NCBI GenBank assembly: GCA_012295275.1
Contig: CM022677.1
Location: 17,608,001 to 17,672,000, forward strand
DNA: 64,000 nucleotides
Source of the DNA: Chrysomallon squamiferum
Taxonomy: Eukaryota; Animalia; Mollusca
Reading direction: 5' to 3'
Part shown: piece after piece, positions 36,701 to 39,700 of the stretch
Layout: each line of letters opens with the position of its first letter
Numbering within the stretch: the first letter of the stretch is position 1
Notes under the pieces: generated by a model
The model's input: the letters and a program-made list of their open reading frames with translations, nothing else
Databases searched by the model: none
Told to the model about the DNA's origin: nothing
Position numbers and translations under genes: made by a program

Positions 36701-39700
36701 AATTTATATAAAATTTTCAAGGTATCTTATTTAGTGTAAAATGTAATTTAAAGGTATTGTGAAAATCAAGGTGTGTAAATTAATGTAAAAGGTAAATTAA
36801 AAACAAATATATTAACATAAAATATTTTATAAATTAAAAACACTGAAAAAAAATCAAGATGTATTAATTAGTATAAAATGTAATTAAAAACACTTTGTAA
36901 ATAAAGGCATTTTAATTAGTATAAAATATAATTAAAAACACTTTGAAAATCAAGGTATTTTAATTAGTATAAAATGATATTTAAAAACTTTGTAAATCAA
37001 GGTATTTTAATTAGAATAAAATGATATTTAAAAACTTTGTAAATGTATTTTAATTTTATAATCTTTGTAAATAAAGGTATTTTAAGGTATAAATTGATTT
37101 TAAAACACTGAATATCAATGTATAAAATGTAATTAAAAACAAAAATTTTCATTAATTGTAAAAACACTTTGTAAAATCAAGGTATATTAATTAGTATAGA
37201 ACATAATTAGTAAATCAAAGTATATTAATTAGTATAAAACATAAATTAAAATTAGTATAGAAGGTAATTAAAAACACTTTGTGTGAAAGTGAAAACAGGA
37301 GTTTGACCAGTTTACAAGTTGAAATCTTGCAGCAGGAACAAGATGCCAGCCAAATTAAAAACACATGGCCAGATTTATCAAGATTTCATTTACCTTACGC
37401 ACAGGTGAACCAGGTACAAAGTCACACTGGAACAAAGTTTCCTAAATTCTAAATTCTAAATTCTCAAATACCATTTAAAAAGAAAATTGTCTTAAATACA
37501 CCAAAAAGAGGACATTTAAAAGTGTCCCGGTATTGATTCTGAAAGTTAATTAAAGCCTGTAGACTAATTTGAGCCAACCCGTCACCCCTACGTGCATAAT
37601 GGATGAGCCTAATTGCTGAAATGCCAGATGCTACTACACCATTCACTGTTCCTGACTAGCAGAGTCTTCAGACCACTTGACTGGCAGATCCAAGCTGGAA
37701 AACAAAGCCTACAGAAAACAAAAGGATTTAACTGCAGTTCGCACCATTTCCCCAGCTAGTACTATACTTGGATATACACACACAGGAAGGGGAAACAGAA
37801 ATCTTCAATTTAAAGAGATAGAAAAATTTCGATTCCTCATTTGTGATATATTTTTTTTTTATCAAAACTTGTTGGACAACTTGTTTTGTTTAAAAAAAAA
37901 AGAAAGAAAAAAAGAAGTTCTCTATCTGTTTGAGATAACTGTATTTTTCTCAGGATTTGTTTAGAATTGTCTGATTCTGTTTTAGAATTCTTCTTGTCTG
38001 GATTTTGTATTTGGATATTCTACAGTTTGGAATTTCAGTGGATTTTTTTTCCTTTTTTTTTGTTTTAAAGCCATCATCTTATACAGTGAATTTTTGGTTG
38101 TAATTTAGAATCGTTTTTTTTCTTTCAGTATTTAAAAAGTTTTATAACTTATTTAAATATACTGTGTTAATTTATTATTATATATAATATATTCTTCTGA
38201 GTACTAGTAAAGGATTATTGAACAAGAATAGTTACTAATAGAGAAGAAGTTAACAAATAATTCCTGGTTGTTGCCAAAGCAACAAGTGTTTTTATTTCAC
38301 TGAATCTTTCCTAAGTTAGAAATCAAGGGTGTTATAGTTGTAGGAATACACTTTAATAGGAAATAAACATAAACTTTTTTGGTTATAAAATCCCAATAGA
38401 TTTTTGAATTATTACTTTGTATTTTAAACTGTTTTCTTAAACAAAATACTTTATATTTTTAAACTTTTTGGAAATACAAAATACCTTAATTATTATAGTT
38501 ATATAATAATAATAATAATAATAATCATTGGTTACAAGTAATAATAATAAGATTCAGTATCAGAATAATAATATAAGAAAATAAATTATAAAAAGAATAA
38601 AATATTAACACAATAACAGTATTAATATTATAATAATATAAAAAAAAGTAAAAAAAACAACAATAAGAAGCAAAAATAATTTCAATTATTAACTTTAATT
38701 AACAAATATATTAATAAGAATATATTTTCTTTTTCATTTTAAAATTAATTATTAACTAACACTTCAAAAAAGAAAAAAAAAGAAAAACTTTATTTAACCA
38801 AACTATTGCATAGGATATATCGATCATCAGATTTTTTTTTTTAATTTTATAATTTTCTTAAATCAGTTTAGTAGATGGTTAGTAGTAATGAGTTATTCGT
38901 TGAATCAAATGTTTTCAAAGTGAAAAAGTGTGGTGCTGCTGTTTTCTAAGGAGGGATTCACTAAATAATCACCACGGATCCCAACAGGAAAATGTACTGT
39001 ACCTACCCGTTTTATAGCCCTTTCATGTATCTGCCGGCCAAATTGCCAAATGTGAGTATTCGCTAGACAAAACTAGTTGTTATTTAAAAGTTTGAATCAT
39101 TTGGTTCTGTGTTGATTTTGTTGTTTCAGGACTGCATATAATTTAATTTGATTTATTACAGATTCATTGTAATATTTTTAAATACTTAATATTTTTTTTT
39201 TTTTTTGTGATTTTCTGTTTATGTATTTTAAATGTTCCAGATATTTTAATTTGATTTATTATTTAAATATTTTGAAGTCTTTAACTGGGTTTATTATTTA
39301 TCCATTTTAAAACCTTCATTTGTATTTGAATATGTTAAGCTTTTGTAATTTTAGTTATACTGGATTTTGATACTATTCAGTTCCTTAATACTATCCAGTT
39401 GTTAATTTTAAAAAATATATTATTTGTTTTACTGAATATAAACGATAAAACAAAATAATAATAATAATAATAAAGTTAATCTTTCATAATCTTTCATAAT
39501 TTTAGTTAAACTGGGTTTTGTTACTATCCAGTTCATTTGACAGTTCAGTTGTTAATTTAAAAAAATATATTATTTGTTTTACTGAATATAAAAACGATAA
39601 AACAAAAGTAATAATAATAATAATAAAGTTTTTGAGTTGATAATTTAATAAAGTATTCTGTTTATTTAAAAAAAAAAGAAAAAGAAAAGTTAATTTAAAA

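What the first reader, a model, noticed from the sequence alone, without database searches (positions are those of the whole stretch)
38992..39051. Invertebrate homologue of the HEBAlt/TCF4-A 'Alt' first exon
Seen in sequence: a 20-codon ATG exon, [20 protein letters not shown], with a strong gtgagt donor in phase 0. It lies in the intron between the NLS exon and the VYSPS exon. Established (sequences recalled from memory): vertebrate HEBAlt (MYCAYPVPGMGSNSLMYYYNGKT) and TCF4-A (MYCAYTIPGMGGNSLMYYYNGKA) start from an intronic promoter at this same position and splice into the VYAPS exon, dropping AD1 and the NLS. Inference: the shared MYCxYP...MY signature and intron position suggest the Alt isoform, which I know only from vertebrates, predates the protostome/deuterostome split.
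Basis: partly seen in the sequence, partly recalled or inferred. Interest (0 to 1): 0.9.

Follow-up and report, generated by a model that had tools for sequence, protein, structure and literature searches.

The report
Ancient short-form start of E-protein gene
A snail's E-protein transcription-factor gene holds a small coding exon, conserved in other molluscs and annelids, that likely starts a shortened protein like vertebrate HEBAlt/TCF4-A; such a form is already published for sea urchin, but a possibly related exon in corals and sea anemones would make it older than bilaterian animals.

Summary
38992-39051 is a 20-codon ATG exon with a gtgagt donor in phase 0, between the NLS exon and the VYSP exon of an E-protein (TCF3/4/12) gene. 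The gene is sister to that of the snail Gigantopelta aegis (96%).

Public isoforms of apple snail (16/20 identical), mussel and two tubeworms join the same peptide to that exon. Hagfish and frog Alt peptides rank it first of 567 candidate starts in the window, though frog margins are thin. The vertebrate YYY motif is absent. No spliced junction was seen in this species (contigs only).

Schrankel et al. 2016 (PMID 27265865; title seen, text not held) describe the Alt form in sea urchin and, as I recall, infer a bilaterian origin.

Possibly new: eight anthozoan genera have a conserved 20-residue start at the same junction. It resembles the annelid peptide beyond chance, but the snail's only weakly. 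The window also holds two further conserved candidate start exons.

The parts
38992..39051 (+). Alt-type first coding exon, 20 codons (4 Tyr), phase-0 end
   Evidence: 16 of 20 identical to Pomacea XP_025081085.1; tblastn 7e-12 within the window
39052..39057 (+). Splice donor gtgagt
   Evidence: one of 2 GTRAG donors among 147 ATG..GT pieces in the intron
38800..38991 (+). Presumed internal promoter / 5' leader; limits not mapped. In-frame TAA 38962-38964; three upstream ATGs (38875, 38888, 38909) whose short frames close before 38992; a possible acceptor AG at 38865-38866
   Evidence: sequence; transcription start not shown
44807..44897 (+). First shared exon (VYSP..., equal to HEB exon 9 / TCF4 exon 10); target of the Alt splice
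   Evidence: 30 of 30 identical to G. aegis X1; covered by a 1453-nt RNA contig in run X1
17527..17588 (+). Last canonical-only exon with basic cluster (RKRPK), NLS-like; skipped by the Alt form
16850..16961 (+). Canonical-only exon
5125..5189 (+). Canonical-only exon
4219..4311 (+). Canonical-only exon (limits from tblastn)
706..770 (+). Canonical-only exon; the AD1 core exon lies upstream of the window
48521..48676 (+). Shared exon; out of phase by one base as assembled, probably a consensus error
49838..50047 (+). Shared exon (LPPMS...DALGKALAS)
   Evidence: 96% to G. aegis
52481..52562 (+). Shared exon
53183..53262 (+). Shared exon
54513..54716 (+). Shared exon ([13 protein letters not shown]2 region); the bHLH exons were not found in the window
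25670..25771 (+). Second candidate start exon in the same intron, phase 0, ending DFIELTPVQ
   Evidence: matches N-termini of Pomacea X8 and Babylonia X5 (E 0.002 and 0.017 within the window)
12523..12591 (+). Third candidate start exon, two introns upstream, phase 0
   Evidence: matches N-terminus of Haliotis cracherodii X9 (E 4e-7)

Best explanation
The 20-codon exon at 38992-39051 lies in phase between the NLS exon and the first shared exon of a gastropod E-protein gene and is likely the first coding exon of a short isoform, predicted to be transcribed from an internal promoter and spliced to 44807, and probably descended from the same ancestral exon as vertebrate HEBAlt/TCF4-A. Shown: the exon, its donor and phase, the gene's identity, and the same peptide joined to the same exon in public mollusc and annelid isoform models. 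Inferred: the promoter and the splice in this species. The product would swap about 236 N-terminal residues (AD1, the NLS and part of AD3) for a Tyr/Pro-rich 20-mer and keep AD2 and the bHLH. By analogy with TCF4-A and HEBAlt it would be a weaker activator whose nuclear entry depends on its bHLH partner, so a promoter switch would retune E-protein dimers in particular cell types. The vertebrate YYY phospho-switch is absent, so JAK control cannot be assumed.
For: Exon anatomy. Gene identity and placement: sister to G. aegis, 100/100 support, 96% over 212 columns. Same start joined to the VYSP exon in Pomacea XP_025081085.1, Mytilus VDH91719.1, Ridgeia and Lamellibrachia; shuffle z 10.0, 6.0 and 6.9 against the window peptide for the first three. 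Vertebrate link: hagfish z 3.5, frog HEBAlt 2.5, frog TCF4 2.4. Local scores of 42 (hagfish) and 35 (frog HEBAlt) are reached by 0 of 1312 other ATG..GT peptides of the window. A vertebrate-only HMM ranks this exon first. Vertebrate architecture and function: PMC9385190, PMC3346973, PMC3137626. Sea-urchin precedent.
Against: No 39051>44807 joint among the joints shown for two RNA runs. The RNA contig over the exon runs 9 nt past the donor at intron-background depth. None of 6 G. aegis isoforms starts with this exon. Vertebrate margins are thin: HMM 6.7 vs 5.5 bits; frog HEBAlt 19 vs 18; amniote TCF4-A tied. Unrelated start peptides reached z 3.3 (hagfish vs Pomacea X8) and 2.4 (window vs the Haliotis upstream start) in the same shuffle test. 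No bridging Alt peptide was among the listed amphioxus (0 of 7), hemichordate (0 of 15 listed of 18), sea-urchin (0 of 5) or Owenia (0 of 5) isoforms, and the crinoid start at this junction is not significantly similar.
Confidence: 0.8

Rival explanations
1. The exon is a real spiralian start exon but arose independently of the vertebrate Alt exon; this intron repeatedly gains short start exons, and the MYC-x-YP likeness is coincidence or convergence.
For: At least six other N-termini join the same exon in fetched isoforms (Pomacea X8 and X9, two scallop types, Acropora X15, Antedon X6), and the window holds a second one at 25670. Annelid vs hagfish z is only 0.4 and Mytilus vs hagfish 0.8. 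Lengths differ (20-21 vs 23).
Against: Hagfish and both frog peptides pick this exon, not the other intronic start, out of 567 starts. Snail and hagfish share MYC-x-YP at the very start and SP-[FL]-MY later. A sea-urchin Alt form is published.
Confidence: 0.12
2. The exon is the first coding exon but not the first transcribed one: a non-coding exon upstream splices into an acceptor near 38865, so the promoter lies elsewhere.
For: A pyrimidine-rich tract and CAG at 38845-38866. An X2 contig begins at 38866. The tubeworm isoforms have 10 extra residues before the conserved start.
Against: An X1 contig runs unbroken over 38794-38938, and no joint or loose end is listed there for the RNA runs. HEBAlt transcription starts just upstream of its Alt exon (PMC3346973).
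Confidence: 0.05
3. The exon is a silent relic in this species.
For: No spliced junction seen; not among the G. aegis isoform models.
Against: Intact ATG, frame and consensus donor, and 16 of 20 residues shared with a distant gastropod inside an AT-rich, microsatellite-filled intron. The runs are shallow contig sets, which show presence and not absence.
Confidence: 0.03

Closest known systems
HEBAlt (TCF12) and E2-2Alt / TCF4-A / ITF2-A (TCF4) of vertebrates
   Same: Short Met-start exon before the VY[AS]P exon, phase 0; the product lacks AD1 and the NLS; starts MYC-x-YP and has a later MY (PMC9385190, PMC3346973, PMC3137626).
   Different: 20 instead of 23 residues; no YYY motif, no Gly-rich middle; lies in an invertebrate pro-orthologue, not in a TCF4 or TCF12 paralogue.
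Sea-urchin E-protein Alt form (Schrankel et al. 2016, Dev Biol 416:149, PMID 27265865)
   Same: Invertebrate E-protein locus with a conserved alternative form (title seen; PMC6433000 cites it for invertebrate loci built like HEB/E2-2).
   Different: Its sequence was not obtained, so no direct comparison. This window is a protostome; whether the paper lists molluscs could not be checked.
Public spiralian isoform models: Pomacea XP_025081085.1, Mytilus VDH91719.1, Ridgeia and Lamellibrachia E-proteins
   Same: Same start peptide joined to the same exon.
   Different: Unlabelled gene models; tubeworm models carry 10 extra N-terminal residues.
Anthozoan short E-protein isoforms (e.g. Nematostella XP_032238057.1, Actinia XP_031566456.1, Acropora XP_029197874.2)
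   Same: 20-residue Met start joined at the same VYSP junction, AD1 absent, strongly conserved over 8 genera.
   Different: Begins MWR-x-PYP; significant likeness only to the annelid peptide.

Membership tests
E-protein Alt isoform (HEBAlt/E2-2Alt type) | Host gene is a class I bHLH E-protein | tested here: met
E-protein Alt isoform (HEBAlt/E2-2Alt type) | Unique Met-start exon between the NLS exon and the VY[AS]P exon, in phase | tested here: met
   definition in PMC9385190
E-protein Alt isoform (HEBAlt/E2-2Alt type) | Peptide similar to the vertebrate Alt domain | tested here: met
   modest: hagfish z 3.5, 0 of 1312 null peptides as high; thin margins for frog and amniote
E-protein Alt isoform (HEBAlt/E2-2Alt type) | Spliced to the first shared exon | tested here: inconclusive
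   not seen in this species; joined so in four relatives' models
E-protein Alt isoform (HEBAlt/E2-2Alt type) | Product lacks AD1 and the NLS | tested here: met
   by exon order: all these exons lie upstream of 38992; NLS activity itself not tested
E-protein Alt isoform (HEBAlt/E2-2Alt type) | Own transcription start site with restricted expression | not testable with these tools
   only contigs of RNA runs were available
Vertebrate HEBAlt / TCF4-A in the strict sense | 23-residue Alt domain with the YYY motif | tested here: not met
   20 residues, FMYLP at that place; YYY described in PMC9385190
Vertebrate HEBAlt / TCF4-A in the strict sense | Encoded by a TCF12 or TCF4 paralogue | tested here: not met
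   window groups with Gigantopelta, outside the vertebrate clade
Anthozoan 20-residue start as an Alt homologue | Same junction and loss of AD1 | tested here: met
   11 proteins of 8 genera; protein level only, exon structure not seen
Anthozoan 20-residue start as an Alt homologue | Sequence similarity to bilaterian Alt peptides | tested here: inconclusive
   vs Ridgeia z 2.5-4.9 and above all 1312 null peptides; vs window z 0.4-1.0; HMM cross-scores at background

The most novel reading that the evidence does not exclude
The Alt start exon is older than bilaterians. The conserved 20-residue start of sea-anemone and coral E-proteins, the spiralian exon seen here and vertebrate HEBAlt/TCF4-A all descend from one internal-promoter exon of the cnidarian-bilaterian ancestor, with the core M-aromatic-x(2-3)-YP-x(2)-R-x-hydrophobic(2)-x-Y-x-P kept and the YYY phospho-switch added in vertebrates. 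The AD1-less, NLS-less E-protein would then be as old as nervous systems, and testable in Nematostella.
Probability: 0.45. Interest if true: 0.5.

Novelty: new member of a known kind. Interest (0 to 1): 0.3.

Why it matters
For the finding as given, it is a clean protostome example of an isoform type already published for sea urchin and already present, unlabelled, in mollusc and annelid annotations. It confirms rather than overturns. Its use is comparative: the residues kept from snail to hagfish (MYC-x-YP, MY) differ from the vertebrate YYY motif on which functional work has centred, which points to an older, untested function of the Alt peptide. If the anthozoan start is homologous, the two-promoter design of E-protein genes, whose human TCF4 member underlies Pitt-Hopkins syndrome, would predate bilaterians and could be studied in a sea-anemone model.

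Tried and rejected
No whole genome is held for this window, so other gene copies and the bHLH exons could not be checked.

RNA: one search listed 6 runs of 3 studies, none holding half of the words. I laid 2 of the 4 RNA runs and 2 runs of unrecorded kind over 37500-46500. All are contigs; no Alt junction among the 15 joints shown (29 more not shown). X5 covers all 30 bins and looks like genomic DNA.

A word-seeded search with the Pomacea N-terminus (residues 1-45) returned only its own cluster. The Atlas gave scores of 0.78-0.81, leads only. The metagenome scan kept 80 of 169 loci, mostly with arthropod daughterless-type N-termini. I saw no Alt-type start among them, and my script parsed no frame in 8 of the 80. 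The profile search of representatives gave 69 hits and no new invertebrate Alt-type start; I looked up names for 10 of them. The Antedon, Elysia and Plakobranchus starts at this junction are not convincingly Alt-like.

The candidate list missed stops in the first seven codons; counts come from the corrected. Haliotis dropped out of the tree through my trimming, and the chiton row was not trimmed. An in-frame cassette reading from the NLS exon through the nearest AG was rejected: that AG lies 4 nt before the ATG, out of phase. A candidate start at 29230 found no convincing match. The bacterial promoter scan is not applicable. No fold or complex job was run on a 20-residue peptide.

Full report
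Observation. Window 38992-39051 reads [20 protein letters not shown], followed by gtgagt. An in-frame TAA at 38962-38964 makes this ATG the first start of the frame. The piece sits in an AT-rich, microsatellite-filled intron. The basic exon 17527-17588 ends in phase 0, and exon 44807-44897 begins in phase 0, so both the canonical splice and an Alt splice keep the frame. The window holds 1313 open ATG..GT phase-0 pieces of 10-40 codons (567 distinct starts); 147 lie on + in this intron, and 2 of those have a GTRAG donor.

The gene. Exon 49838-50047 found 144 proteins (120 listed); the named ones are nearly all TCF4/TCF12-like or bHLH proteins, best Gigantopelta aegis at 96% (a peltospirid gastropod). 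G. aegis X1 maps to eleven exons between 705 and 54722; the AD1 core and the bHLH were not found in the window. A tree of 18 rows puts the window sister to G. aegis (100/100) and outside the vertebrate clade (Haliotis dropped). The sequence is not vertebrate.

Conservation in spiralians. Four public models join a like peptide directly to the VYSP-type exon: Pomacea XP_025081085.1 (16 of 20 identical), Mytilus VDH91719.1, and the tubeworms Ridgeia and Lamellibrachia, which have 10 extra residues in front. Shuffle z-scores against the window peptide are 10.0, 6.0 and 6.9 for Pomacea, Mytilus and Ridgeia residues 11-31. A profile of these three scores the exon 38.4 bits against 4.0 for the next candidate. 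Misses: no such start among listed isoforms of G. aegis (0 of 6), Haliotis (0 of 15 listed of 49), chiton (0 of 11), Octopus (0 of 14), Patella (0 of 11), Lineus (0 of 9), scallops (0 of 15 listed of 20), Babylonia (0 of 5) or Owenia (0 of 5). These are annotations, not genome scans.

Link to vertebrate Alt. Fetched hagfish, frog and amniote isoforms begin MYCAY and join the same exon after 23 residues. Against the window peptide, z is 3.5 for hagfish, 2.5 for frog HEBAlt, 2.4 for frog TCF4-A and 1.8 for amniote TCF4-A. As queries they rank this exon first of 567 starts: hagfish 37 vs 18, frog HEBAlt 19 vs 18, frog TCF4 20 vs 15, amniote tied at 12. Local scores of 42 and 35 are unmatched by 1312 other window peptides. 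A vertebrate HMM ranks it first by 6.7 to 5.5 bits. Against this, unrelated start peptides reached z 3.3 and 2.4 in the same test, and annelid and mussel peptides do not match hagfish (z 0.4, 0.8). No bridging deuterostome peptide was found: amphioxus 0 of 7, Ptychodera 0 of 15 listed of 18, Diadema 0 of 5. Antedon X6 has a start at this junction that is not significantly similar. Homology is likely but rests on few residues plus position.

Expression. Six runs hold part of the stretch. In one search no joint 39051>44807 is listed. An X1 contig spans 38909-39060, 9 nt past the donor, at depth 3.8, like plainly intronic contigs (3.4-3.7), so it is background or unspliced RNA. A 1453-nt X1 contig covers 44813-44897 and goes on about 180 nt on the upstream side with no piece listed on the Alt exon. 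It is probably the canonical mRNA (inference; the table is cut). Splicing of the Alt exon in this species is therefore not shown.

How it likely works. [quoted passage not shown] Its YYY motif can be phosphorylated and raises activity. Human TCF4-A lacks AD1 and the bipartite NLS and is carried into or out of the nucleus by its dimer partner (PMC3137626 passages). By exon order the snail isoform would lose the same parts: about 236 residues by the G. aegis X1 junction, leaving roughly 500-710 residues depending on 3' exons. I infer a weaker, partner-dependent E-protein under separate transcriptional control. The snail peptide has four tyrosines but no YYY.

What is known. [quoted passage not shown] I saw only this title in reference lists; the paper is not held, and its text and supplements could bear on which species are covered. 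That its abstract infers the transcript in the common bilaterian ancestor is my recall. PMC6433000 (passages; supplement search) cites it for non-gnathostome loci being built like HEB/E2-2 and labels the sea-urchin protein 'Can'. PMC6783274 (passages) cites it among studies of dominant-negative or differently localised isoforms. PMC9399370 (passages) describes HEBAlt without evolutionary comment. My ten paper searches found no paper on a mollusc or cnidarian Alt form; the library lacks most subscription papers, including the key one.

Beyond the finding. Eleven isoforms of eight anthozoan genera (Actinia, Nematostella, Pocillopora, Stylophora, Acropora, Oculina, Orbicella, Montipora) start with a conserved 20-residue peptide, MWR-x-PYPHQR..., joined at the same VYSP junction; Hydra has none among 6 listed. 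Against the Ridgeia peptide the four tested score z 4.7, 4.9, 3.5 and 2.5 and exceed all 1312 null peptides. As queries they rank the window's exon 4th, 8th, 1st (tied) and 5th of 567. But their direct z against the window peptide is 0.4-1.0, and HMM cross-scores are at background. The annelid pair is the best of several comparisons, so I put homology at somewhat better than even, and novelty in print is unverified. The window also holds two more candidate start exons with mollusc matches, 12523-12591 and 25670-25771. This recalls the many 5' exons of human TCF4 and is a reason not to lean on position alone.

Verdict. A real, conserved Alt-type start exon; interpretation supported; a new member of a known kind; interest 0.3. 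The pre-bilaterian reading has probability about 0.45 and would merit about 0.5. The scan's earlier notes held nothing on this gene.

Noticed in passing
proteins P0221, P0240, P0251, P0260, P0269, P0270, P0275, P0287, P0291, P0300, P0301: Sea-anemone and coral E-proteins have a conserved 20-residue alternative start at the same junction; similar to the annelid Alt peptide, weakly to the snail's.
   Followed up: partly
window 25670-25771 (+): Second candidate start exon in the same intron, phase 0; its end matches Pomacea X8 and Babylonia X5 isoform starts.
   Followed up: partly
window 12523-12591 (+): Tyr/Pro-rich candidate start exon two introns upstream, phase 0, matching the Haliotis cracherodii X9 start.
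   Followed up: partly
window 48521-48676 (+): Shared exon is 156 nt where the flanking phases need 3n+2. A CA-rich stretch stands where G. aegis has ordinary coding sequence; probably an assembly consensus error beside a microsatellite.
   Followed up: partly
window 17580-17588: The NLS exon runs three codons further (TGP) than in G. aegis models, like Haliotis and Patella; possible alternative donor.
   Followed up: no
window 38875-38949: Three short upstream frames (24, 11 and 4 codons) close before the Alt ATG; possible translational control if within the leader.
   Followed up: no
window 50046-50089: The end of the DALGKALAS exon and its donor are repeated about 34 nt downstream, giving a second possible donor.
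   Followed up: no
window 29230-29262 (+): Short ATG frame before a weak GT donor; no convincing match to other isoform starts.
   Followed up: partly
L007, L008, L012, L014 and most other loci: Arthropod-type daughterless transcripts share a different conserved N-terminus (DD/EP-MxLYxVFQ..FNKI) in place of the DKEL-DLLDF start.
   Followed up: no
L037:63-1860; proteins P0395, P0325, P0346, P0271, P0192, P0191, P0202: Further distinct N-termini join the same VYSP-type exon in other animals, so this junction is a hotspot for alternative starts.
   Followed up: partly
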